Source of the DNA: an uncultured Candidatus Saccharibacteria bacterium
GTDB taxonomy: Bacteria; Patescibacteriota; Minisyncoccia; Phycocordibacterales; Phycocordibacteraceae
Assembly (NCBI GenBank): GCA_964550425.1
Contig: CAZJZB010000004.1
Coordinates: forward strand, 1-63,261
Direction of reading: 5' to 3'
Length of the DNA: 63,261 bases
Shown one piece after another: positions 3,455-54,186 of this stretch. The notes beneath the pieces are model-generated. The model saw only the letters and a list, made by a program, of their open reading frames with translations. It was not told the origin of the DNA and ran no database searches. The first letter of the stretch is position 1; every line of letters begins with the position of its first letter. The position numbers were made by a program, and so were the translations under genes.

Positions 3455-3979
3455 ATGCCATACTCTCCGCATATGCGATCAATTGCCCATACTGCTCTCG
3501 TGTTCATCGCACTTCTCGCACCAGCTCCTACATACGCATTAAGTGACGCATCATATACACTCACAACACCGGGCATTAGCTCTCAATCATCGCAATTTTT
3601 CACGACCGGCGTCTTCGGTATGCCATTTGGCGGCGGATTCGGACTCGGCGGATATAGTAGCGGCTGCGCAAATTCCATCTATTGCATCGCGGGGAACGTT
3701 ATCTACATCATCAATAGCGTGTTGGTGCCGGTACTTTTCGCAATTTCTTTTATCGTATTTCTCTACGGCATCACCCGCGCGTATATTTTTTCCGCAGGCG
3801 ATCCGGAGAAGGTGAAGGAGGGGCATAAGATTATCCTCTGGGGCCTCATCGGGTTCGCCGTGATGGTATCCATATGGGGGCTGGTGAATGTCGTCTCCAA
3901 TACTTTCGGCCTTCAGGGCTCGTACGCGCCGTTTCTGCCGATGTCGCCTTCTCCCTTTTTAGGGCCGGCGCCTCGATAA
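3455..3979 (+). CDS. pilin-like protein, paralog 3 (longer N-terminal extracellular part)
   Basis: Signal peptide and a Gly-rich segment, followed by the shared module VLVPVLFAISFIVFLYG...GDPEKVKEGHKIILWGLIGFAVMVSIWGLVN. Confidence 0.6.
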   Translation: MPYSPHMRSIAHTALVFIALLAPAPTYALSDASYTLTTPGISSQSSQFFTTGVFGMPFGGGFGLGGYSSGCANSIYCIAGNVIYIINSVLVPVLFAISFIVFLYGITRAYIFSAGDPEKVKEGHKIILWGLIGFAVMVSIWGLVNVVSNTFGLQGSYAPFLPMSPSPFLGPAPR

Positions 3980-4279: not shown

Positions 4280-4367
4280 TTCTCCGATATCCCCACGGGG
4301 TGAGAGGGTATAGTTGACTCTGTTTCCAGGGACGTTACAATTACCCCATTATCCACTTATCAACACT

Positions 4368-4751
4368 ATGAAAAAAGCCCTCGCCCTCGTTTCAGGAACA
4401 TTTGCCGCACTCGCTCTGCCGCTCGTCTCTTTCGCACAAACAGTTAGTAATCTCTCGAGCGCCGGTACTTTGATTATCAATACCATTAATAATGTCCTCG
4501 TCCCTGTTCTTTTTGCCATTGCTTTCATCGTGTTCCTGTGGGGCGCGTTCCAGACCTTCATCGTTGGCGCCAACGACGAGGAAGTGAAGACACATGGTAA
4601 GAATCTCATGCTCTGGGGCCTCATCGGCTTTTTCGTCATGGTCTCTCTCTGGGGTCTCGTGAACATTCTTACCGGCACTGTTAGCTTTGGGACCAGTTCT
4701 GGACCATCGAGCGGCCTTCCAAAGGCAGGTGTCCAAGTAGGTGGTTTTTAA
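4368..4751 (+). CDS. pilin-like protein, paralog 5
   Basis: The ATG at 4368 gives the signal peptide MKKALALVSGTFAALALPLVSFA. Shared module VLVPVLFAIAFIVFLWG...NDEEVKTHGKNLMLWGLIGFFVMVSLWGLVN. Confidence 0.6.
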   Translation: MKKALALVSGTFAALALPLVSFAQTVSNLSSAGTLIINTINNVLVPVLFAIAFIVFLWGAFQTFIVGANDEEVKTHGKNLMLWGLIGFFVMVSLWGLVNILTGTVSFGTSSGPSSGLPKAGVQVGGF

Positions 4752-6890: not shown

Positions 6891-6896
6891 GTTTTG

Positions 6897-6984
6897 TGCC
6901 GAGGGTGGGAATCGAACCCACAAGAGCCGATTAAAGCTCACAACGTTTTAAGCGTCGCGTGTCTACCAGTTTCACCACCTCGGC
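6897..6984 (-). tRNA. tRNA-Leu (anticodon TAA), type II
   Basis: Acceptor GCCGAGG/CCTCGGC, anticodon stem CGACG/CGTTG, loop CTTAAAA, long variable arm, T-loop TTCGATT. Confidence 0.85.
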
Positions 6985-7459
6985 GAACATTCTTATTTCT
7001 ACCACGATGGGTGGATTTCAAGCTATGACAGTTGGGACAAAGGATTCGTAGGTTTTCAAGTCGATTATCAGAATGATTTCCATTTATATGATCAATTTCG
7101 ATAGGAATACGACCGTCTTCACTCCGTTTTGCCCAACCGCATTCCTCACATTTTGGTCTCTTAAGACCAGCTTGGAACAATCGCTTTTTTAGTTGATAAA
7201 TTGAGAAATTACTGTTTGTAACGAGAATTTCTTCAAGAGTGCGAACAGGTTTTTTAGGAACATTTTTATTTTTACTCCATCCTTTCCCTAAGAAGTGGCC
7301 CGTATCTATCTCGTATTCTTCAACGAACTTTTCGAAATAACGGTAGTTGCCTCCAGCACCCCGTAGATTCATTTTTTGCAAAGCATCACGGATGCTTTGT
7401 GAGGAGGCAATTACTTTTCGTAAGGACTTTTCTTCCCAATGCTTTTTAATGGGTCTCAC
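6938..7459 (-). CDS. HNH homing endonuclease
   Basis: HNH motif EIDHINGNHSDNRLENLRILCPNCHS plus CEECG. The gene is AT-rich, and its 3' 47 nt run into tRNA-Leu(TAA). Confidence 0.75.
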   Translation of the reverse strand: MRPIKKHWEEKSLRKVIASSQSIRDALQKMNLRGAGGNYRYFEKFVEEYEIDTGHFLGKGWSKNKNVPKKPVRTLEEILVTNSNFSIYQLKKRLFQAGLKRPKCEECGWAKRSEDGRIPIEIDHINGNHSDNRLENLRILCPNCHSLKSTHRGRNKNVRRGGETGRHATLKTL

Positions 7460-9484: not shown

Positions 9485-10663
9485 ATGTTTTGGAAGCGGA
9501 GAATATATCTTGATAATGCTGCAGGCGTGATGCCTAACCCGTCATCGCCGCATGAAGAGGGAAGGCGGGCTAAGAACATGTTGGAAGACGCGCGGACGGT
9601 TATCGCGCGCCTCGTCGAGGTACAACCGGACGATGTTATTTTCACGAGCGGCGCGACCGAGAGTAACGCGCTCGCCATTCTTGGGCATGTGCGAGCTCTT
9701 CGTGCGGCAGGAACGAAAGATATTCATATGTTATATCTGCCGAGCGCGCATGCATCTATCGTTGAAAATGCAAAAATGCTTTCTGCGGAAGGTGTAAAGG
9801 TAGATATTCTTCCAGTGAAGGATTATCGCGTTGATATAGAAGAGCTTAAGAAGATGCTTACGCCTGAGACAGTGCTCGTTTCCATGGAGGCGGTGTGCGG
9901 TGAGACGGGAGTCGTGTGGAACACACGCGAGGTCGCGGGGATGTTGAAAAAATTTAGCACGGGCGCACTGAAAAAAGGAAGCGCTCAGGCCGCTAGGCCG
10001 ATTCAACATCCTTTTTTCAGTGCGCCCGTGCTGCATGTTGACGCGAGCCAGGCACCTCTGACCGAGAAAATAACGCGCGCGCATTTCGCCGCGGATATGC
10101 TCACACTTGATGCGGCAAAGGTCTCCACTGCTCGCGGCATCGGCGCGTTTATTGCACACCGCACAATTCCAATCGTTCCTCTCTACGCGGGCGGCGGCCA
10201 AGAACGCGGATTACGTTCAGGAAGCGAGGCGCCGGAACTCGCGAGGAGTTTTGCGGCGGCGGTTGCCGCCGCTGCATCCGGGCGCGAGAAGTTCCGTGCT
10301 TCTGCCGAGCGTGATCGTGCGAACCTTATCAGCATGATTGTTGCCGGTATTCCGAATGTGCAAGTGCAAGAGGGCCGATTTCAGGCACCCCACATTCTCA
10401 ATCTTTCGTTTCCGAACCGTGACACCGATTATCTCGTCGCGCTCCTTGATGAAGCGGGTTTCGCCGTCTCGTCGCGGAGCGCCTGCGAGACGGATTCGCA
10501 GGTGGGTTCGCGGGCCGTTCTGGTCCTGACCGGCGACCCGGAGCGCACCCGTGCGACACTGCGTATATCCTGGGGCCCCAATGTTTCTCCGCATTCGTTT
10601 ACTCGCTTTGCCCGTGCGCTTCAAGAGACCGTTGCGTTTATTGACAGTGACGGCCGAAGGTAG
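9485..10663 (+). CDS. class V aminotransferase / cysteine desulfurase-like (NifS/IscS-like)
   Basis: Motifs IYLDNAAG and FTSGATESNALAI, with the overall class V layout. It carries the in-frame hairpin insertion at 9961-10027. Confidence 0.7.
   Translation: MFWKRRIYLDNAAGVMPNPSSPHEEGRRAKNMLEDARTVIARLVEVQPDDVIFTSGATESNALAILGHVRALRAAGTKDIHMLYLPSAHASIVENAKMLSAEGVKVDILPVKDYRVDIEELKKMLTPETVLVSMEAVCGETGVVWNTREVAGMLKKFSTGALKKGSAQAARPIQHPFFSAPVLHVDASQAPLTEKITRAHFAADMLTLDAAKVSTARGIGAFIAHRTIPIVPLYAGGGQERGLRSGSEAPELARSFAAAVAAAASGREKFRASAERDRANLISMIVAGIPNVQVQEGRFQAPHILNLSFPNRDTDYLVALLDEAGFAVSSRSACETDSQVGSRAVLVLTGDPERTRATLRISWGPNVSPHSFTRFARALQETVAFIDSDGRR
9961..10027 (+). repeat. in-frame hairpin element, copy 1 (19-bp perfect stem, conserved 29-nt loop)
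   Basis: gggcgcactgaaaaaagga (9961-9979) is the exact reverse complement of tccttttttcagtgcgccc (10009-10027). The loop agcgctcaggccgctaggccgattcaaca is identical to 28806-28834. Confidence 0.8.
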
Positions 10664-15676: not shown

Positions 15677-15702
15677 TTCCCATTCTCGGCGTGCAGTAAA
15701 AA

Positions 15703-16575
15703 TTAGGACATCGGATGTCCTAACTTGCGCAGCCAGGCTTTTTGGCGTCTGGCATACTGCCAAAGTTTCGCCGAGAGGGCCGGTAGGAGTACTTCGCTGC
15801 GCTCAGTACCTCCGGCGCGTAGATACTCTCCGATTATGCGATACTCGAGCCCAAATTCGTTGAGCCGTATATCGCCGACCATTTCTCGAATAGTGCGTAC
15901 TTCATCAATAAGTCCGCGCGCAAACGCGCTTTCCAGCCGCGTGTCTATTCTCGCGCGCAACTCTTCTTTTGGCGGGTCAATCACTATCCATTCAACAAGG
16001 TATCCACAACTTGTGCCTATAGGCACATCTTTTGGATACCTTGATGGGACGGTGCCGAGTGAGGCGATTATTTCCAAGGCGCGGATGAGTCGGCGGCGGT
16101 TTTTAGGATCCAATTCTGCCCCTCGGCGCGCGTCCGCCAAGCGGACACGCGCATAGAGTTCGTTCGTGGAAAGCGTTTCAAGTTCTTCGCGAAGCAGGGG
16201 ATTTGCATCAATACCCATCGGCAGGCCGTGAAGAAGTGCATGGAAATAGAAATGCGTTCCTCCGACAAGGATGGGAAGTTTTCCGCGATCCGAAATATCT
16301 TCAATAAGGCGTGTCGCATCCGCCACGAAGTCACCTGCAGAATACGCCTCATGCGGGTCGCGGATATCGATAAGATGATGGGGAACGCCACACATCTCCT
16401 CGGCGGTTATTTTTTCTGTGCCAATATCAAGTTCGTGGTATACTTGTCGCGAATCAACCGAAATAATCTCGCCACCACGCACAAGTGCTTCTTCAATTGC
16501 CCGCGAGGATTTGCCCGAAGCAGTTGGGCCTACTACGCATACAATTTGCCTTGCCATTGCGCACGATGGTATCAT
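15703..16575 (-). CDS. miaA: tRNA dimethylallyltransferase
   Basis: Motifs VVGPTASGKSS, ISVDSRQVYHELDIGTEKIT, VPHHLIDI and PILVGGTHFY. The start may instead be the second Met, at 16554 (codon 16552-16554). Confidence 0.85.
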   Translation of the reverse strand: MIPSCAMARQIVCVVGPTASGKSSRAIEEALVRGGEIISVDSRQVYHELDIGTEKITAEEMCGVPHHLIDIRDPHEAYSAGDFVADATRLIEDISDRGKLPILVGGTHFYFHALLHGLPMGIDANPLLREELETLSTNELYARVRLADARRGAELDPKNRRRLIRALEIIASLGTVPSRYPKDVPIGTSCGYLVEWIVIDPPKEELRARIDTRLESAFARGLIDEVRTIREMVGDIRLNEFGLEYRIIGEYLRAGGTERSEVLLPALSAKLWQYARRQKAWLRKLGHPMS

Positions 16576-27788: not shown

Positions 27789-28623
27789 TGAGCGCCTGCC
27801 TGTCGGCAGGCAGGGCCTTTCCGAACGGCGCCGGTTACGGCGCCGCCGAGTCATCATAGTGCTCACTATTCTCATCTTCGTCTGTCTCGGAGCGGTCGCG
27901 CATGGTCTCGGGCAGAGTGCCGTGCGCATCTCACGCATAGATGTTTTTGGAGCCGATGCTACGCTCGCCGCGTATGCAACGAGCGCGATGCAGGGATGGT
28001 ATGGCGGCATCATTCCGCGCGACTCAACATTTTTCCTGCCTGCTGCGCGCATTCGCGCTGGCATCCTTGCTGCGCATCCGGACATAGCCGCCGTTTCAAT
28101 ATTTCGCAACGGACTAACCGGTCTTTCAATCAGAGTGGACAATCGTGTTCCCATCGCGCGTTGGTGCGGTACGCCCTCGGATGCGTCATTCGGCATTAGT
28201 ACCAGTACGCCGCTCGGCAAGGACTGCTATTTTTTTGATGCGAGCGGCGTTATCTACGCGACGACAAGTACCGCGCAGCCGCTAAATTCTTTCACTGTGT
28301 ATCAATCTTTCGCGAATGAGGATGGTCTTATCGGTTCAACGCTTCCGAATATCGGGACATTTTCCGCAGCTTTTGACTTCGCACGACAGCTCGAGACATT
28401 TGGCTCGTCGGTTTCTTCAATCGTTTTTCGCAACGATGAAGTTGATGAGTACCTTCAGAGCGGCACACGTGTTACGTACGTGCTCGGAAATGAACAGAAC
28501 GCTTCCACTGCGCTTGTGTCTGCGCGCGCGAATTTAAATCTCGCGAACGGTTCTATCGAATACATTGATCTGCGCTTTGACGGCAAGGTGTATGTGAAGA
28601 AGAGAAGTGATAAGGTGCAATAA
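27766..28623 (+). CDS. FtsQ/DivIB-like cell division protein (TM helix plus POTRA-like domain)
   Basis: Arg-rich cytoplasmic N-terminus, TM helix VIIVLTILIFVCLGAVA, then a POTRA-like segment VRISRIDVFGA. The GTG start at 27766 is tentative; alternatives are TTG at 27772 or the GTG inside the TM helix. Confidence 0.5.
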   Translation: MSLEPRGSERLPVGRQGLSERRRLRRRRVIIVLTILIFVCLGAVAHGLGQSAVRISRIDVFGADATLAAYATSAMQGWYGGIIPRDSTFFLPAARIRAGILAAHPDIAAVSIFRNGLTGLSIRVDNRVPIARWCGTPSDASFGISTSTPLGKDCYFFDASGVIYATTSTAQPLNSFTVYQSFANEDGLIGSTLPNIGTFSAAFDFARQLETFGSSVSSIVFRNDEVDEYLQSGTRVTYVLGNEQNASTALVSARANLNLANGSIEYIDLRFDGKVYVKKRSDKVQ

Positions 28624-29711
28624 TGTCATTCTGGCAGAAACTCAATAAGCCATTTATTGTGATGGCGCCAATGAAAGACGTGACCGATGTCGCTTTCCGA
28701 CAACTCGTCGCGAAGAGTGGCGCCCCCGACGTATTCTGGACCGAATTCGTTTCGGCTGACGGTCTCTACTACACGCAAGAAATCGCCGGCAAGTCAGAAA
28801 AATCAAGCGCTCAGGCCGCTAGGCCGATTCAACATGATTTTTCTGACTCACCGGCTCATAAAAGCAACAATCCGCTCGTGCGCGATCTGGCGTTCATGGA
28901 GGAACAGCGGCCAATAGTCGCGCAAATTTTTTCAAGCAAGCCGGAGATGATTGCGTATGCGACGAAACTTGTCGCAGGTCTCGGGTTTGACGGCGTTGAT
29001 ATCAACATGGGCTGTCCGGACCGAACGGTTGAGAAGCAGGGCGCTGGCGCCGCGATGATTAAAAATCCGAAGCTCGCTCAAGAGATCATTCGCACCGCCA
29101 AACAAGCGGCTCTCGAAGCGGCAATACCAAATCCGTCCTATAGGACGGATTTGGTACTGTCACGATTTCCGATTCCTGTGTCGGTAAAAACACGCATTGG
29201 CTACAACACTGAATCGCTCGACGAGTGGCTCACGGCGCTTCTGGAAGCAGGCCCCGCCGCCATCACGCTCCATCTGCGCACGCGCAAGGACATGTCGCTC
29301 GTGTCGGCGGATTGGGAACAAATGAAAAAGGCCGTTGAGATTCGCAATCGTGTGAATCCGGACGTGCTCCTCATCGGCAATGGCGACGTGCAGGACCTCG
29401 CTGATGCGCGTGCGAAGGCGATCGAATCAGGATGCGACGGCGTAATGCTTGGTCGCGCGATGTTCGGGAATCCATGGGTTTTCGCTGGCCGAAAAAGCGA
29501 AGACACGCCGCTCGCTGAGAAGCTCGCGGCGCTTATTGAGCTCGCGCATTCCTTTGAGAAAATCTCGCCGCCCAAGAACTTCTCAATACTGAAAAAGCAC
29601 ATCAAGGCATTCGTCACCGGCTTCAATGGTGCCGCCGAACTCCGCGCGCTCCTGATGCAGGCCGAGAATGCATTCGAGCTAGAGCGCATTCTGCGCGAGA
29701 ATCCAGTATAA
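28623..29711 (+). CDS. tRNA-dihydrouridine synthase
   Basis: Motifs MAPMKDVTDVAFRQL, GVDINMGCP and the Dus TIM-barrel pattern. It carries the in-frame hairpin insertion at 28793-28847. Confidence 0.8.
   Translation: MSFWQKLNKPFIVMAPMKDVTDVAFRQLVAKSGAPDVFWTEFVSADGLYYTQEIAGKSEKSSAQAARPIQHDFSDSPAHKSNNPLVRDLAFMEEQRPIVAQIFSSKPEMIAYATKLVAGLGFDGVDINMGCPDRTVEKQGAGAAMIKNPKLAQEIIRTAKQAALEAAIPNPSYRTDLVLSRFPIPVSVKTRIGYNTESLDEWLTALLEAGPAAITLHLRTRKDMSLVSADWEQMKKAVEIRNRVNPDVLLIGNGDVQDLADARAKAIESGCDGVMLGRAMFGNPWVFAGRKSEDTPLAEKLAALIELAHSFEKISPPKNFSILKKHIKAFVTGFNGAAELRALLMQAENAFELERILRENPV
28793..28847 (+). repeat. in-frame hairpin element, copy 2 (13-bp stem, same 29-nt loop)
   Basis: Stem gtcagaaaaatca (28793-28805) / tgatttttctgac (28835-28847). 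The loop at 28806-28834 is identical to 9980-10008. Confidence 0.8.
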
Positions 29712-29718
29712 TCCGCCT

Positions 29719-30855
29719 ATGGCGCATCAGTCCCTTTATCGTATTCACCGGCCTGCCACCTTCGCGGATGTCATCGGGCAGGAGCAGGTGACGAAGCCAC
29801 TTGAAGAAGCGGCAAAAGCGAAGAAGATCGGTCACGCCTATCTCTTTGCTGGCAGCCGCGGTCTCGGGAAGACCTCGGTCGCGCGCATCTTCGCAAGCGC
29901 CATCGGCTGCACCGAGAATGATCTCTACGAGGTCGATGCCGCGAGCAACAACAGCGTGGAAGACATACGCACACTCACAGAGGGTGTTTACACATTGCCG
30001 TTTCAGTCGCCCTACAAGGTCTATATTTTGGACGAGGTGCACATGCTCTCCAAGGGCGCGTGGAATGCATTTCTGAAGACGCTTGAAGAACCGCCTGCGT
30101 ATGCGGTCTTCATCCTAGCGACCACCGAGCTTGAGAAGGTGCCGGAGACGGTACAGTCGCGGTGCCAAGTATTTGAATTCAAGAAGCCGACGCGGGCGGT
30201 GCTAGCTTCGATGACCATGGCGGTAGCTTCGAAAGAAGGGTACACGCTCGCGCATGATTCCGCCGAGCTCATCGCGATACTCGCTGAGGGTTCGTACCGC
30301 GATGCGCTCTCGGTGTTGCAAAAGGTGTTCGCCGCGACAAAAGGGAAGACGTTGTCACGCGAGACAGTGGAAGCGGCGACCGGCGCGCCGCGCCGTGAGC
30401 AGGTGCATGCGCTCGTGAGCGCGCTCGCCGCGGCTCCGCCAGCTGGCGGACGCAGCAAGGCACTTGCCGCCATTGAACAGGCGGCAAAATCCGGTGCGGA
30501 CATGAAGCTCTTCTTGGAACTTGTACTAGAAGCGCTGCGCGCCACACTCCTCATTCGCTACGCACCAGAACTTCGCACCTCGCTCGCGGACGAGCTCGGC
30601 GCGGACGAATTTTCGGCGCTTGAGAAATTTGCCACTTCGACTTCCTTCGATAAAACTCAGGACAAGTCGCTCAGTGCAGGAAAAGGGAACCCCTCGACGG
30701 ATTCGATACACTCACCGCAGGCAGGGCTCGGGGCAGGAGGCATCACCCACGCGACCATGCTCGCTTTCCTTACTGCTGCCGAACGCATCCGCTACGCGCC
30801 CATTCCCGCGCTCCCTCTGGAGCTCGCCGTCTTGGAACTCTTCCCGAACGAATGA
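29719..30855 (+). CDS. dnaX: DNA polymerase III subunit gamma/tau (short form)
   Basis: Motifs YRIHRPATFADVIGQE, HAYLFAGSRGLGKTS, YILDEVHMLS and SRCQVFEF. Confidence 0.85.
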   Translation: MAHQSLYRIHRPATFADVIGQEQVTKPLEEAAKAKKIGHAYLFAGSRGLGKTSVARIFASAIGCTENDLYEVDAASNNSVEDIRTLTEGVYTLPFQSPYKVYILDEVHMLSKGAWNAFLKTLEEPPAYAVFILATTELEKVPETVQSRCQVFEFKKPTRAVLASMTMAVASKEGYTLAHDSAELIAILAEGSYRDALSVLQKVFAATKGKTLSRETVEAATGAPRREQVHALVSALAAAPPAGGRSKALAAIEQAAKSGADMKLFLELVLEALRATLLIRYAPELRTSLADELGADEFSALEKFATSTSFDKTQDKSLSAGKGNPSTDSIHSPQAGLGAGGITHATMLAFLTAAERIRYAPIPALPLELAVLELFPNE

Positions 30856-48605: not shown

Positions 48606-51194
48606 ATGAAAGAACCAGGATTCCCGCCGCCCGGAGGTAAAAAAAAGCTCGAAGACGCAGATACAGTCGACTATAAACGTGCCGCACATCGCCTTGCGGA
48701 AACACTCTATCGCAAGCCGCAGGAAAAGGGTGCTGCCGTTAATAATGCCGCCGAAGGGGGAATTATTGAACCCAAACAGAATGAAGAGTCAAAAGTTAGC
48801 CAAATGCCCGACTCTATCCAGAGTTTGCGGGCGGAAATACGAGATTTAGAAGCAGAGGCGACGCAGCCGGGGGCGGATAAGAATATTGAGCCGGAAATTC
48901 TCAAGCGTGAGGATAAACTCCGTACACTCGAAACGGCAAAACATGCGTCCGCAAAACATGAAGCAAAAGCCAATCGGATAAAGGAAATTCGTCAGCGCCT
49001 CTCGACGCTTGAATACCAAGCGGCGCATCCGGCCGAATATTCGCGCAATCACGATGAATTGGAAAATGAAGTCCTGACGGCTGAAAAAGAGTTGAGAGAT
49101 TTGGAATCGGCCGGGCGGCCTGTAGAGGGTACGCCGAAAGAGTTGCGTAATAAGTTTCGCGACAAATTACGCAAACTCATCGGTGGTGTGACAGAACGTC
49201 TCAACATGGGTGAGCGCGCCGGACGTTTACAAGCATATTTCGCAGAACGTTCGAAAAGTTTGAATGAGAAAGCGGAGGGGTATGGACCGAAGATTGCGGC
49301 ATTCATCGGTTCAGGGATCGAAAAATACAATAAGCTGCATTGGCTGACGAAACTTACCATCACGGGCGGTCTTGTCGCCGGCGTTTCGCTCACCTCGATG
49401 GTTGCACCGATCGTCTCCGGGATACTTGCTACAACTCTTTATGGCCAGCGCGTCGTCGGTGCGGCCGGTTTCGCCATAAATAAACGTAAGAAGATTGACG
49501 CGAAAATCGCAGAGAACTCTAAATATTGGCTAGCGAACAAATCGGAGACCATGAAAAATACCTATGCGACCGTATTCGCTGCGGTATATATGGGAGGTAC
49601 GGCTTTTGCCGTGCACGAAGGTGTCGAGGCGCTCAATGCGCTCGGAGTGAATGAATGGTTTGGCAACGCGCCTGGACCCGACGCTCCTCCACAGGTCGTC
49701 GCGCCCACAAAACCGGAAATTCCTGATGCATCACCGGCTCCAGCACCGACGGAAACACCAGCGCCCGAAACGCTTGTTCCTGATGAATCAGCCACCGAAT
49801 TGACAGAAGCACGAGCCGTCACAGATCGCGCGTTTGCTAATCTTAAAGAACGTGTAGCTGAAGCTCAAAAGTTGGCTTCCGAACAACAAGTCGCCATCGA
49901 CAAGGCGCTTGAAGCAGCCAATCCACCTGAAACGACTGGAGTTCCCGATGATTTGGGTACAACCGGAGCCGTTGCGGGTCTTGATGCAGACCAGAGACCA
50001 AGTGATGCTCTGGATAAAATCAAAGCGGAGAAGTTTGAAATTGAACAACATGTAGCTGAATCCGATGCTGCTTTGGATAGATATAATGCAGCTAACGATC
50101 TTACTGACGAATTCAATGCACGTGTCGCGGAACTTGATACTAAAATTGAAGACGCCTTGGGGCGGCACAATGCTCTTTTGGATGAATATGGAGCGGCTGG
50201 ACGCGAGGCCATAGAATCAAACCAAAGAGCCAATCAACTTCATACTGATGCAAATAGTGCGTTTGAGAATGCCAAAGAACATATGGAAAAGTATAAAGAT
50301 ATAATAAAAAATACAAAGGATAGTGACATCGATGCGAACGAAGCGCAAATACGCGCGGAAATACGGGGAGATCAAGAGGTGCTTGAACGTGATGCTGAAG
50401 AAGCGGCGAAGGCCTATGACGATGCTGAAGCCATCATTGACGATAAGTTTAAGCGCGCCGAATATCTTAAATCTCAAGCCGCAGATGCCAAGAACGCTTA
50501 TGAAGATCTCGCGGCTCAAAAGAAAGCCGCTTTTGAAGCATTAAATGCCGACAAGCCGTTAGAAAGTATCTTGCCTGCTTCGCCGGCTGAACAGCAGAGT
50601 GACAGTGGGGATATATCCGGAGCAGAGCAAGCAGGTAGAACTTCAGAGTCCCCATTCGGACGCGACGCCAATGGACATCCTTTCCCGTCTGAGCAAGAGG
50701 CAAAGGATTATGACGATCTCATACATAAAGGGATACGCGATCCGAGAGAAACGGGTGCGTGGCCTCCCGAACCCTCACAAGAAAAAGGATTTCTCGATAA
50801 AATTTCAGATTGGTTTAAAGAAGATAAGAATACAACAGAAATGAGCGATACTCATTTTGAAACAAACGCATCAGGATTAGCGGTCGATACCGCCCACGCA
50901 AATGCGTATCTTGATGCACAAGGCAATCACATCATTTTCGGCGGTTCCCTTGAAGATCGGATGAAAACGGCGCTTCAATTAGCCGCCAAAGATCGTTCCA
51001 TCGCCGTGTATTTCGACTCAACACGGCCCGGCGGCCTATTCGGATGGTTCCAGGAGCATCATTTAAGCAAAGCATATTCTCCTGAAGGTTCAGCCCTGCC
51101 GCAAATTGTAGACGACATAGCCGATGCAACACTGCGAGGTGTCAATCTCCCAAGCATTGATGATCTTAAAGAAGTGTATAAACCTATTAAATAA
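48606..51194 (+). CDS. large membrane protein: cytoplasmic coiled coil, ~3 TM helices, Pro-rich linker, long acidic coiled coil, C-terminal globular domain
   Basis: 862-aa ORF starting 3 nt after the ATPase stop. TM region at about aa 245-345, a PAPAPTETPAPE linker, and Asp/Glu/Ala-rich heptad-like segments. Confidence 0.6.
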   Translation: MKEPGFPPPGGKKKLEDADTVDYKRAAHRLAETLYRKPQEKGAAVNNAAEGGIIEPKQNEESKVSQMPDSIQSLRAEIRDLEAEATQPGADKNIEPEILKREDKLRTLETAKHASAKHEAKANRIKEIRQRLSTLEYQAAHPAEYSRNHDELENEVLTAEKELRDLESAGRPVEGTPKELRNKFRDKLRKLIGGVTERLNMGERAGRLQAYFAERSKSLNEKAEGYGPKIAAFIGSGIEKYNKLHWLTKLTITGGLVAGVSLTSMVAPIVSGILATTLYGQRVVGAAGFAINKRKKIDAKIAENSKYWLANKSETMKNTYATVFAAVYMGGTAFAVHEGVEALNALGVNEWFGNAPGPDAPPQVVAPTKPEIPDASPAPAPTETPAPETLVPDESATELTEARAVTDRAFANLKERVAEAQKLASEQQVAIDKALEAANPPETTGVPDDLGTTGAVAGLDADQRPSDALDKIKAEKFEIEQHVAESDAALDRYNAANDLTDEFNARVAELDTKIEDALGRHNALLDEYGAAGREAIESNQRANQLHTDANSAFENAKEHMEKYKDIIKNTKDSDIDANEAQIRAEIRGDQEVLERDAEEAAKAYDDAEAIIDDKFKRAEYLKSQAADAKNAYEDLAAQKKAAFEALNADKPLESILPASPAEQQSDSGDISGAEQAGRTSESPFGRDANGHPFPSEQEAKDYDDLIHKGIRDPRETGAWPPEPSQEKGFLDKISDWFKEDKNTTEMSDTHFETNASGLAVDTAHANAYLDAQGNHIIFGGSLEDRMKTALQLAAKDRSIAVYFDSTRPGGLFGWFQEHHLSKAYSPEGSALPQIVDDIADATLRGVNLPSIDDLKEVYKPIK

Positions 51195-52891: not shown

Positions 52892-54121
52892 ATGAGTGCG
52901 ATTGATTTTAAAATAGAGAAGCGCGCGGCGCGAAGCGCCGCGCGTGCGGGCGTACTCGCTACGTCTCACGGCGATATTCACACACCCGCTTTTGCGCCGG
53001 TGGGTACCAAAGCAAATGTAAAAGGCATTCTTCCCGAACAATTGAAGCGGCTCGGCGCCGAAGTCGTACTTGCGAACACCTACCATCTCTATCTTCAACC
53101 GGGCGAGAAAATCGTGCATGGGGCCGGCTGGCTCGGAACATTCATGGGCTGGGATGGTCCCACCATGACCGATTCGGGAGGTTTCCAGGTCTTCTCGCTT
53201 GGTGCCGCGTTCGGAAAGACCATCTCAAAGTTCGTTAAAGAGGACGCTCCCGAAGTCGAGTCGGTTGCCGTGTATGACGAAAATGTTGCAAGTCAACATG
53301 GGCAACTCGCCATTATTGATGACGAGGGTGTTTCGTTTACCTCGCACCTTGATGGCTCGCTCCACCGCTTCACTCCCGAGCGTTCGGTGGAGATCCAGCA
53401 TGCGCTTGGCGCGGATATTTTCTTTGCGTTTGATGAATGCACTTCGCCGACAGCCGCGTATGAGTATCAGCGGGAGGCGATGGAGCGCACGCACCGCTGG
53501 GCGGCGCGTTCCCTTACGGCGCATCGGCAGAATATAGACGCGAACAAGCGACAAGCATTGTTCGGCATCGTGCAGGGAGGTCGGCACGAGGACCTGCGCA
53601 GGGAATCAGCGCGCGAGATTTCCTCGCTCGGTTTTGACGGCATCGGCATCGGCGGTTCTTTCTCTAAGGAGGATATGCGCGGCGCGCTTACCGCCGCGGT
53701 AACTGAGCTTCCCGAAGAGTTGCCACGGCATTTTCTCGGCATCGGCGAGCCGTGTGACATTCTGGAAGGCATCGCGAACGGCATGGATCTCTTTGACTGC
53801 GTCGCCGCAACCCGGCTCGGCCGCCATGGTTCCATCTACACAAAGCATGGTCTCATTCACTTAAAGAATGAAAAATATCGCACCGACTTCACCTCACTTG
53901 AGGAACATGTGGACTTACGAAGTCCACATTTCACACGGGCGTATGTGGCGCATCTTTTGCGTTCAGGGGAAATGCTTGGGGCCGTCATCGCCTCCATGCA
54001 CAATGTTGGCTTCATTCTGAACCTCGTCTCCGGCGCGCGGCAGGCCATCCTCGATGGACGATTTGACGAATATCGTGCAGATTTCATTCGCAATTACTCC
54101 AATACCAACTCTGTCCTATAG
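52892..54121 (+). CDS. tgt: tRNA-guanine transglycosylase (queuine tRNA-ribosyltransferase)
   Basis: Motifs TPAFAPVGTKANVKG, TMTDSGGFQVFSL and FAFDECT. Confidence 0.85.
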   Translation: MSAIDFKIEKRAARSAARAGVLATSHGDIHTPAFAPVGTKANVKGILPEQLKRLGAEVVLANTYHLYLQPGEKIVHGAGWLGTFMGWDGPTMTDSGGFQVFSLGAAFGKTISKFVKEDAPEVESVAVYDENVASQHGQLAIIDDEGVSFTSHLDGSLHRFTPERSVEIQHALGADIFFAFDECTSPTAAYEYQREAMERTHRWAARSLTAHRQNIDANKRQALFGIVQGGRHEDLRRESAREISSLGFDGIGIGGSFSKEDMRGALTAAVTELPEELPRHFLGIGEPCDILEGIANGMDLFDCVAATRLGRHGSIYTKHGLIHLKNEKYRTDFTSLEEHVDLRSPHFTRAYVAHLLRSGEMLGAVIASMHNVGFILNLVSGARQAILDGRFDEYRADFIRNYSNTNSVL

Positions 54122-54186
54122 GACGAAATTGGTATTTTGAATGCGGTATGTTCAATTATCCTATACACTCCCCTCACACGCGCATC

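What the first reader, a model, noticed from the sequence alone, without database searches (positions are those of the whole stretch)
28793..28847. Copy 2 of the conserved-loop hairpin element, in frame inside tRNA-dihydrouridine synthase
A 13-bp stem (14 bp with one flanking A-T pair) encloses a loop identical to copy 1. It adds a KSEKSSAQAARPIQHDFSDS-type segment to a Dus TIM-barrel enzyme. This second host gene shows the element is a repeat, not native coding sequence. The different stem length (13 versus 19 bp) shows the copies are independent and have diverged.
Basis: seen in the sequence. Interest (0 to 1): 0.7.

Follow-up and report, generated by a model that had tools for sequence, protein, structure and literature searches.

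The report
In-frame hairpin repeat inside Dus gene
A 72-base hairpin-forming repeat sits in frame inside a tRNA-modifying enzyme gene of a tiny "candidate phyla" bacterium, and the tip of the hairpin is kept more constant than the gene around it, so the DNA or RNA shape, not the extra protein loop, is what matters.

Summary
Window 28785-28855 is a hairpin: 21-nt arms (13 bp perfect core) around a 29-nt apex identical to one at 9980-10008. It occupies exactly 24 codons (A55-A78) of an intact Dus gene. Most Dus orthologues lack it (…TREIKKMKDEENPL…), and AlphaFold models the extra peptide as a disordered surface loop.

It belongs to a low-copy family found only in CPR/Patescibacteria (about 30 distinct copies recovered). 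Copies lie in frame in Dus, cysteine desulfurase and a LigD-like linker, or a few bases after stop codons, in either orientation.

The stems differ but stay paired: 19/23 pairs show double-sided changes, and 16/23 do so among eight orthologous Dus copies. The 25-nt loop (CGCTCA-GGCC-GCTA-GGCC-GATTCAA) barely changes. Codon identity at identical residues is 91-92% in the loop against 46% in the rest of the host gene, in both host genes. Rare loop variants are shared by different copies within one genome.

Best reading: a palindromic repeat of the Rickettsia-palindromic-element kind, inserted once in a Dus ancestor and translated as a harmless loop. Its single-stranded hairpin tip is under nucleotide-level selection, probably as a docking site for an unknown trans-acting factor. 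No transposase, target duplication or Rfam family was found.

The parts
28785..28805 (+). Left arm of the hairpin (GCCGGCAAGTCAGAAAAATCA). The outer part matches the family consensus CGCCGGCA. The inner A-tract GAAAAA is nearly invariant in the family.
28806..28834 (+). Apical 29 nt identical to copy 1. G28807-C28833 is the closing pair. The 25-nt loop is 28808-28832 (CGCTCAGGCCGCTAGGCCGATTCAA). The mini-helix is GGCC 28814-17 / GGCC 28822-25 with tetraloop GCTA.
28835..28855 (+). Right arm (TGATTTTTCTGACTCACCGGC).
28785..28856 (+). The 24 codons (Dus residues A55-A78, AGKSEKSSAQAARPIQHDFSDSPA) contributed by the element. They stand where orthologues have about 3 native codons (KKM), a net gain of 21 aa.
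   Evidence: AlphaFold pLDDT is below 50 for residues 58-80.
28623..29711 (+). Host gene: tRNA-dihydrouridine synthase. The ORF is intact and the TIM barrel is modelled with confidence apart from the two inserts.
9956..10032 (+). Copy 1 of the same family: 24-bp perfect stem and identical apex. It lies in frame in the class-V aminotransferase / cysteine desulfurase ORF 9485-10663.

Best explanation
The segment is one copy of a low-copy family of ~72-nt hairpin (palindromic) repeats native to Paceibacteria-like CPR bacteria. It is the same kind of thing as the Rickettsia palindromic elements.

Shown: It is not native Dus sequence. It sits at a permissive surface loop. It is read through in the one frame used by all sense-oriented coding copies, giving …SAQAARPIQH…. 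It has been inherited vertically in a set of Dus orthologues. During that descent the arm sequences were largely replaced while base pairing was kept, and the 25-nt loop stayed almost unchanged even at synonymous positions.

Inferred: The unit that matters is the folded single strand (ssDNA or RNA), not the peptide. The stem presents an apical loop with a GGCC-GCTA-GGCC mini-hairpin, and this loop is the sequence-specific docking site of an unidentified trans-acting factor, either a mobilising enzyme or a host protein. Copies lie in both orientations relative to genes, so a DNA-level or orientation-independent role is more likely than a sense-RNA signal. The original arrival was by insertion of a mobile or copied repeat. 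The insertion mechanism is not resolved.
For: Repeat, not native:
- An identical 29-nt apex occurs in two unrelated genes of the window.
- There are 7 genome loci and 16 metagenome loci, all CPR, and none in viral contigs.
- Most Dus orthologues have an empty site.
- There is an empty site at the miaA 3' end in the window, where L019 is filled.
- Partial-deletion derivatives exist in cysteine desulfurase.

Permissive sites:
- The element peptide has pLDDT below 50 and lies between regular barrel elements.
- The LigD-like copy lies in the inter-domain linker.

Structure kept:
- 19/23 stem pairs show double-sided changes. 89% of cells are paired, against 70% in shuffles and 37-50% when the partners are slid.
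- Among 8 orthologous Dus copies, 16/23 pairs show double-sided changes and 88% of cells are paired.

Loop constrained at nucleotide level:
- Codon identity at identical-residue columns is 91% in the loop against 46% in the rest of Dus. Nucleotide identity is 92% in the loop, 72% in the gene and 56% in the stem.
- Cysteine desulfurase repeats this: 92% against 46-48%.

One ancestral Dus insertion:
- The inner stem GAAAAATCA/TGATTTTTC is shared by most Dus copies only, and all filled sites lack the native KKM.

Trans factor or concerted evolution:
- The rare tetraloop change GCTA>GCTC occurs in three copies from one sample, including a sub-family E1b copy.
- The rare ATT>ATG change occurs in both the Dus and the Cys copies of proteins whose longest recorded contig is the same length (50,322 nt), so probably one contig.

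Both orientations:
- Copies lie antisense at the valS and miaA 3' ends, between xth and xerC, and inside valS.
Against: - No transposase, recombinase or HUH gene was seen next to any copy, and no target-site duplication could be defined.
- The copy number is low (2 in 63 kb), which is unlike a proliferating element.
- The loop invariance seen in the DNA scans is partly built in by searching with the loop. Only the orthologue sets chosen by protein similarity are free of this bias.
- Stem pairing could be kept by templated quasi-palindrome correction rather than by selection.
- The trans-acting factor is purely inferred.
- The NJ tree of Dus is too poorly resolved to prove a single insertion.
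- That the copies sharing rare variants come from one genome rests on sample and contig-length identity, not on proof.
Confidence: 0.65

Rival explanations
1. It is a sense-RNA cis-regulatory hairpin, for example an mRNA 3'-end stabiliser, a factor-dependent terminator or attenuator, or a binding site for a regulator of translation- and tRNA-related genes. The host uses it, and in Dus and cysteine desulfurase it happens to be embedded in coding sequence.
For: - Intergenic copies lie 3-28 nt after a stop codon, often between convergent genes.
- The neighbours are rich in tRNA and translation genes: Dus, cysteine desulfurase, miaA, valS, cca, gatC/gatA, rplI/rpmA, rpmE, rpsB.
- The loop and the pairing are under constraint.
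- At the miaA 3' end the window has a small terminator-like hairpin where L019 has the element.
Against: - Copies that are antisense to both flanking genes (valS 3' end in L004/L023, xth-xerC in L015/L003) keep the same loop.
- There is no U-tract after the stem, and the terminator scan does not call it.
- No Rfam family matches.
- In coding copies the wobble-type mismatches are mostly C.A on the sense strand (21 against 6 G.T), which weakens rather than preserves the mRNA hairpin.
Confidence: 0.17
2. It is a neutral fossil of a selfish MITE-like element. The similarity between copies only reflects recent spread or gene conversion between copies, and the hairpin is kept by mutation bias (quasi-palindrome correction).
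For: - The distribution is patchy, with partial deletions and nested insertions inside the loop.
- Other unrelated palindromic inserts occupy the same permissive sites in other lineages.
- Sharing of rare loop variants within a genome fits gene conversion.
Against: - Orthologous copies in hosts whose synonymous sites are saturated (46% codon identity) keep 91-92% codon identity in the loop, in two independent host genes.
- The loop is the same in genomes from aquifer, lake and soil samples with GC content from 44% to 61%.
- Conversion tracts would have to be confined to about 25 nt, and between sub-families E1 and E1b to about 12 nt.
Confidence: 0.12
3. It is an intervening sequence that never reaches the protein, being removed from the mRNA or bypassed by the ribosome (as with archaeal bulge-helix-bulge introns, T4 gene 60, or mitochondrial 'byps').
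For: - It is a compact, stable hairpin inside a coding sequence.
- Its length is a multiple of three (72 nt).
- The peptide is dispensable.
Against: - All sense coding copies at three independent host sites use the same stop-free frame, and the antisense copy uses the only open reverse frame. This is expected if the element is translated.
- There is no bulge-helix-bulge geometry and there are no take-off/landing codon pairs.
- Intergenic copies are the majority.
Confidence: 0.04
4. It is native Dus coding sequence whose palindromy is a coincidence, or a protein motif under amino-acid selection.
For: The ORF is intact and the peptide SAQAARPIQH is conserved among the orthologues that have it.
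Against: - Most orthologues and all PDB Dus proteins lack it.
- It is identical at the nucleotide level in an unrelated enzyme and in intergenic DNA.
- Synonymous sites are frozen.
- It is predicted to be disordered.
Confidence: 0.01

Closest known systems
Rickettsia palindromic elements (RPE; Ogata et al. 2000, as summarised in PMC10969869)
   Same: Both are dispersed palindromic repeats found in intergenic DNA and also inserted in frame in unrelated housekeeping genes. Both are read in a fixed frame as an extra peptide that is compatible with the protein fold. Neither has an associated transposase, and both occur in small-genome bacteria.
   Different: - RPEs are ~100-150 bp and occur in Alphaproteobacteria with tens of copies. 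This element is 72 nt, occurs in CPR/Patescibacteria and is low copy.
- Here the arms are poorly conserved but co-vary.
- Here the loop is the most conserved part, more so than the host gene's synonymous sites.
- Rare loop variants are shared between copies of one genome.
MITEs with in-frame insertions (e.g. Coxiella QMITE1, ERIC; PMC5896051, PMC10969869)
   Same: Both are short, non-autonomous-looking inverted-repeat elements that can fuse to ORFs.
   Different: No conserved terminal inverted repeats, no target-site duplication and no parent IS were found. The conservation pattern is inverted, with the loop more conserved than the ends.
REP / REPIN-RAYT systems
   Same: Both are hairpin repeats placed just after genes, often between convergent genes, that persist for long periods in a lineage. 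Recognition of a folded single strand by a dedicated protein is a plausible model.
   Different: There is no GTAG/CGTC head. The copy number is far lower. Copies occur inside genes. REP stems are conserved and REPIN loops vary, which is the opposite of what is seen here. No RAYT gene has been identified.
Stem-loops with a conserved loop and a variable stem that are read by a protein (origins of rolling-circle replicons with a nonanucleotide loop, IRE, SECIS, integron attC as a structure-read site). These are cited from general knowledge.
   Same: All have a sequence-specific loop presented on a stem whose sequence is free but whose pairing is kept. Some lie inside coding sequence (bacterial SECIS).
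   Different: There is no sequence similarity. No Rep, IntI or SelB context was found. The 25-nt loop with an internal mini-helix is unlike any of these, and copies are dispersed in both orientations.

Membership tests
Rickettsia palindromic elements (kind: in-frame palindromic repeats) | A dispersed palindromic repeat present in several unrelated loci | tested here: met
   There are two copies in the window, 7 genome loci and 16 metagenome loci, and extra copies found with the covariance model.
Rickettsia palindromic elements (kind: in-frame palindromic repeats) | Inserted in frame in unrelated ORFs, read in a constant frame, at sites compatible with the fold | tested here: met
   Copies lie in Dus, cysteine desulfurase and a LigD-like linker, all in the frame giving SAQAARPIQH. 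The peptide is modelled as a disordered surface loop.
Rickettsia palindromic elements (kind: in-frame palindromic repeats) | Sequence homology to RPE-1…RPE-10 of Rickettsia | not testable with these tools
   No RPE sequences were on hand. The taxon (CPR) and the size (72 nt against ~100-150 bp) differ, so this is filed as the same kind, not the same family.
MITE | Conserved terminal inverted repeats shared by all copies | tested here: inconclusive
   The arms pair, but their sequence is only loosely conserved (consensus TCGCCGGCA…, 56-60% identity among orthologous copies).
MITE | Target-site duplication flanking the element | tested here: not met
   No consistent direct repeat was found at the borders of about 20 copies. 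Filled and empty comparisons in Dus, cysteine desulfurase and miaA gave no duplication.
MITE | A parent IS with matching ends, or a transposase in the genome | tested here: inconclusive
   None was found in the loci held. The ORFs between or next to copies are xth, xerC-like, cca and ribosomal proteins. Only part of the window was scanned against Pfam. Whole genomes were not available.
REP / REPIN | A 20-40 nt imperfect palindrome with a GTAG or CGTC head, extragenic, in high copy number | tested here: not met
   The ends read TCGCCGGCA…TGCCGGCT. There are 2 copies in 63 kb, and several copies are intragenic.
Integron attC | R''/R' boxes (RYYYAAC…GTTRRRY) at the base of the stem, extrahelical bases, and position at the end of cassettes in arrays with intI | tested here: not met
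   ATTCAAC occurs only inside the loop, with no partner box. Copies are solitary, with no array and no intI nearby.
Intrinsic (Rho-independent) terminator | A G+C-rich stem with a 3-8 nt loop followed by a U-tract | tested here: not met
   The scan of 28300-29900 does not call it. The loop is 25 nt and no T-run follows the stem.
Any Rfam family (ribozymes, riboswitches, tRNA-like, etc.) | A match to a curated covariance model | tested here: not met
   At gathering threshold the window gives only 8 tRNAs. The permissive search of 28700-28940 gives only a chance snoRNA match at E = 1.1.

The most novel reading that the evidence does not exclude
The 25-nt loop is a genome-wide cis-acting signal read on a folded single strand by a CPR-specific protein or RNA, and the cell, not only the element, depends on it. 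In that case Paceibacteria maintain a second, nucleic-acid code inside the coding sequence of housekeeping genes (Dus, cysteine desulfurase, LigD-like) and at the 3' ends of tRNA and translation genes. The signal and its reader co-evolve, which would explain rare loop variants changing together in all copies of a genome.
Probability: 0.3. Interest if true: 0.8.

Novelty: new variant of a known kind. Interest (0 to 1): 0.6.

Why it matters
In-frame palindromic repeats are textbook only for Rickettsia. Finding the same phenomenon in CPR/Patescibacteria, with several families competing for the same permissive protein loops, shows it is a more general way in which small genomes acquire protein insertions.

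This family also has an unusual signature. Its stems are free but paired, its loop is frozen beyond synonymous-site conservation, and rare loop variants are shared across copies of a genome. That signature points to an unidentified factor that recognises a hairpin in an uncultivated lineage with very few known regulatory or mobile systems. The 25-nt loop is a ready-made bait for finding that factor. The element is also a caution for annotation and structure prediction of CPR proteins.

Tried and rejected
- Rfam at gathering and permissive thresholds gave nothing.
- A scan of viral contigs for the loop gave 0 hits.
- A census of in-frame host proteins failed three ways. The profile of 14 element peptides found 92 word-sharing candidates but only one hit. 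phmmer of the 30-aa peptide against 1.84 billion representatives gave 0 hits. The host range of coding copies therefore remains unknown.
- I considered that the stems are copied from the target, either by inverted duplication of a flank or by insertion into the tip of a pre-existing hairpin. The residual palindrome GCACGGG-TGCG-CCCGTGC in the element-less cysteine desulfurase of L031 suggested this. I rejected it as the general rule because the outer arms of copies at at least 7 unrelated sites share the consensus CGCCGGCAnAC. It stays possible for that one site.
- I considered a tRNA-like or hammerhead-like reading of the loop (GCUCAG…GAUUCAA). No covariance model supports it.
- The HNH_3 endonuclease ORF of the window was tested as a possible partner. 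It has no homologue in any other locus.
- The NJ tree of Dus, meant to test single against multiple insertions, came out star-like and unresolved.
- The ORF between the two copies in L003 was hoped to be a transposase. It is exodeoxyribonuclease III.

Full report
**1. Observation**

Window 28785-28855 is an inverted repeat with 21-nt arms that are 90% complementary. The core is 13 bp perfect (28793-28805 / 28835-28847). The arms surround 29 nt that recur exactly at 9980-10008, with no such match in 100 shuffles. The strand folds far better than shuffled controls as RNA (-38.2 kcal/mol, z = -7.6) and as DNA (z = -6.2).

Comparison of all copies shows the true loop is 25 nt, CGCTCAGGCCGCTAGGCCGATTCAA. 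It is closed by a G-C pair, usually next to an A.A mismatch, and it holds a GGCC/GGCC mini-helix with tetraloop GCTA.

**2. Host gene**

The element occupies exactly codons 55-78 of ORF 28623-29711, which matches Pfam Dus at 6e-56. PDB Dus proteins have no counterpart for residues ~51-86.

Of the 120 closest orthologues, all Paceibacteria/Minisyncoccia/Kaiserbacteria-like, about 100 read …GLYHTREIKKMKDEENPLMRDL… with no insert at this point. About 16 carry the element at the same position, and all of those lack the native KKM. The net gain is 21 residues.

An AlphaFold model (pLDDT 84.6, pTM 0.85) gives a confident TIM barrel. Residues 58-80 fall below pLDDT 50 and form an unstructured excursion between helix 45-54 and helix 86-89. 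Catalytic and other invariant residues are intact.

**3. Family**

Exact-loop scans found 7 loci in species-representative genomes and 16 in metagenomes, and none in viral contigs. All 7 genome loci are named CPR/Patescibacteria MAGs; the metagenome contigs carry no taxonomic label, though some are identical to those genome loci. A covariance model built from 19 distinct copies found further copies with variant loops. These include a sub-family, E1b, with loop CGCGCTCCGGGCCGCTAGGCCAAGTCTTACC.

The contexts are as follows:
- In frame and sense in Dus, in cysteine desulfurase, and in the inter-domain linker of a LigD-like protein.
- Antisense and in frame inside valS (E1b).
- About ten intergenic sites 3-28 nt after a stop codon, seven of them between convergent genes (rplI/rpmA, rpmE, rpsB, cca, gatC-gatA and others).
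- Three sites antisense to both neighbours: the valS 3' end, xth-xerC, and the miaA 3' end.

There is therefore no fixed orientation relative to transcription. The element is not terminator-like and matches no Rfam family.

**4. Evolutionary signature**

Across 19 copies, 19 of 23 stem pairs show changes on both sides. 89% of cells are paired, against 70% in shuffles and 37-50% when the partners are slid.

That comparison mixes independent insertions, so I fetched DNA for Dus orthologues chosen by protein similarity. These are loci L024, L025 and L027-L030, with L026 as an empty site. Most Dus copies share the inner stem GAAAAATCA/TGATTTTTC, which copies at other sites do not have. They also share the same junctions. 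Both points indicate one ancestral insertion.

Within this orthologous series:
- 16/23 pairs changed on both sides and 88% of cells remain paired.
- Nucleotide identity is 56% in the arms, 72% in the rest of the gene and 92% in the loop.
- At columns where the amino acid is identical, the codon is identical in 91% of comparisons in the loop against 46% in the rest of the gene.

Cysteine desulfurase repeats the result, with 92% against 46-48%, including the pairs not ascertained by the loop. The loop is therefore constrained at the nucleotide level, the peptide is not (30% identity in the arm codons), and pairing is actively kept.

Loop variation is concentrated at the two bases flanking the mini-helix. 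The combinations seen are A.G, G.A, C.A, A.A and G.G, never a Watson-Crick pair. Other variable points are the tetraloop and the closing bases.

**5. Co-variation within a genome**

The rare tetraloop change GCTA>GCTC is seen only in contigs from the paired samples Ga0247841 and Ga0247842. There it occurs in the rplI/rpmA copy, the valS 3' copy and the E1b copy inside valS.

The rare ATT>ATG change (ARPMQH) occurs in Dus P0004 and in cysteine desulfurase P0134. Both proteins have a longest recorded contig of 50,322 nt, so they probably lie on one contig.

Either the copies exchange sequence or they follow a common reader. Exchange limited to a ~12-nt core between E1 and E1b seems less likely than the second option.

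**6. Turnover**

The family shows gains, losses and decay:
- The window lacks E1 at the miaA 3' end, where L019 has it.
- The window lacks E1b at the Dus 3' end, where its closest relative (P0002, 76% identical) has it.
- Cysteine desulfurase orthologues include a derivative that keeps only the left arm (L032), one that keeps only the right half (P0204), and decayed forms.
- Other small inserts are nested inside the loop in P0011, P0015, P0089 and P0145.
- No target-site duplication, transposase or recombinase partner was found.

**7. Interpretation**

In kind it is closest to the Rickettsia palindromic elements (PMC10969869), but it is not a member of that family.

It differs in being short and low copy, and in the inverted conservation pattern, where the loop is more conserved than the gene and the gene more than the arms. 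That pattern, together with the within-genome co-variation, argues that the folded single strand with its apical loop is a recognised signal.

Which molecule reads the loop, and whether that serves the element (mobilisation) or the host, is inferred and not shown. The sense-RNA regulatory reading is weakened by the antisense copies. It is also weakened by the excess of C.A over G.T mismatches on the sense strand of coding copies (21 against 6). The neutral-fossil reading is contradicted by the frozen synonymous sites. Excision or bypass is unlikely given the constant stop-free frame.

**8. Limits**

- The DNA scans used the loop as the query, so loop invariance among those hits is built in.
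- The host-range searches failed.
- No whole genome was available, so copy number, strand bias relative to replication and partner genes remain open. Flank GC skew is positive in 17/20 loci when oriented on the element strand, which is only a hint.
- Literature searches found no description of such elements in CPR.

Noticed in passing
window 29122-29159 (and 54101-54136): A second, unrelated palindrome family (CAATACCAAATCCGTCCTA|TAGGACGGATTTGGTACTG, centre CCTATAGG) is also inserted in frame in the same Dus gene. It encodes IPNPSYRTDLVLS, with pLDDT ~53. Nearly all orthologues lack it, including the closest (P0002). A similar …SSYRTDL… insert sits at the same site in P0027, P0037, P0040, P0049, P0054 and P0058. 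The sibling copy at 54101-54136 supplies the TAG stop of ORF 52892-54121.
   Followed up: partly
L024 2498-2581, L029 1334-1417, L023 9800-9883: Sub-family E1b has a variable stem and the loop CGCGCTCCGGGCCGCTAGGCCAAGTCTTACC, sharing the GGCCGCTAGGCC core. At the Dus 3' end of two relatives it supplies the C-terminus …RLHERAPGR and the TAG stop. In L023 it lies antisense and in frame inside valS. The window's Dus 3' end lacks it.
   Followed up: partly
Dus residues ~50-85 and cysteine desulfurase residues ~155-185 in orthologues (P0003, P0035, P0083, P0113, P0118, P0028, P0042, P0093; P0149, P0152, P0153, P0140, P0136 and others): The same two permissive loops carry several other, mutually unrelated inserts in other lineages. 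Examples are VRDKxSExPGLxxAGVSNGTSE, GAPFF…KNGAP, FSLARGTAATRE, FFAPSGLIGMSQPV, EVRLPYQVRKSDF and HVGRTTSYMGER. Some look palindromic at the peptide level. These sites are hot spots for small insertions in Paceibacteria.
   Followed up: partly
sample Ga0247841/2 (L013/L014, L023); P0004 + P0134 (same-length 50,322-nt Logan contig): Rare loop substitutions are shared by different copies of what is probably one genome. GCTA>GCTC occurs in three copies, including an E1b copy. ATT>ATG occurs in both the Dus and the Cys copies.
   Followed up: partly
stems of ~23 copies (window, L001-L035): Transition-type mismatches in the stems are asymmetric: 29 C.A against 12 G.T on the element strand. The bias is confined to coding copies (21 against 6) and is absent from intergenic copies (8 against 6). 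The complementary strand would therefore pair better than the mRNA. This is unexplained (the minus-strand RNA fold is -44.7 against -38.2 kcal/mol).
   Followed up: no
flanks of 20 loci: The GC skew of up to 5 kb of flanking DNA on each side, oriented on the element strand, is positive in 17 of 20 loci, including the copies antisense to their genes. This is a weak hint of an orientation bias relative to replication. Many of these loci are orthologous and so are not independent.
   Followed up: partly
window 15993-16046 and 15700-15726: A third palindrome (CAACAAGGTATCCACAACTTGTGCCTA|TAGGCACATCTTTTGGATACCTTGATG) lies inside the miaA-like ORF 15703-16575(-), in a segment that is variable and 6 aa longer than in the L019 orthologue. 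A small terminator-like hairpin, TTAGGACATCcGATGTCCTAATTTTT, covers the miaA stop where L019 has the E1 element.
   Followed up: partly
neighbours of copies in L003, L004, L006, L009/13/21, L010, L019, L022, L023 and the window: Host or adjacent genes are strongly weighted to tRNA and translation functions: Dus, cysteine desulfurase, miaA, valS, cca, gatC/gatA, rplI/rpmA, rpmE, rpsB. This may only reflect the gene content of tiny CPR genomes. It was not tested statistically against a whole genome.
   Followed up: no
P0011, P0015, P0089 (Dus); P0145 (Cys): Further short inserts are nested inside the loop of the element, for example SAPQEYFHFSKPEYGQEKLVAQAARPIQH. The loop is itself a target for secondary insertions.
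   Followed up: no
window 6941-7459 (-): A free-standing HNH_3 endonuclease ORF (173 aa) has its 3' end overlapping tRNA-Leu (6896-6984). It has no homologue in any fetched locus.
   Followed up: partly
window 49102-49122 (-): There is a weak partial match to the loop only (ACAGGCCGCCCGGCCGATTCC, E = 0.16), without flanking arms, inside ORF 48606-51194. It may be a decayed copy or chance.
   Followed up: no
window 3455-3976, 4314-4748; 108-695: Two adjacent ORFs match the T4SS_pilin domain and one ORF matches the PaaX Cas2-like middle domain. They are not related to the finding.
   Followed up: no
L031 (P0168) around codons for FRTGAPVL: An element-less cysteine desulfurase has the same length as pristine orthologues but carries a residual palindrome, GCACGGG-TGCG-CCCGTGC, exactly where others have the element. 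It could be a near-precise excision product or a pre-existing small hairpin that was the target. This is unresolved.
   Followed up: partly
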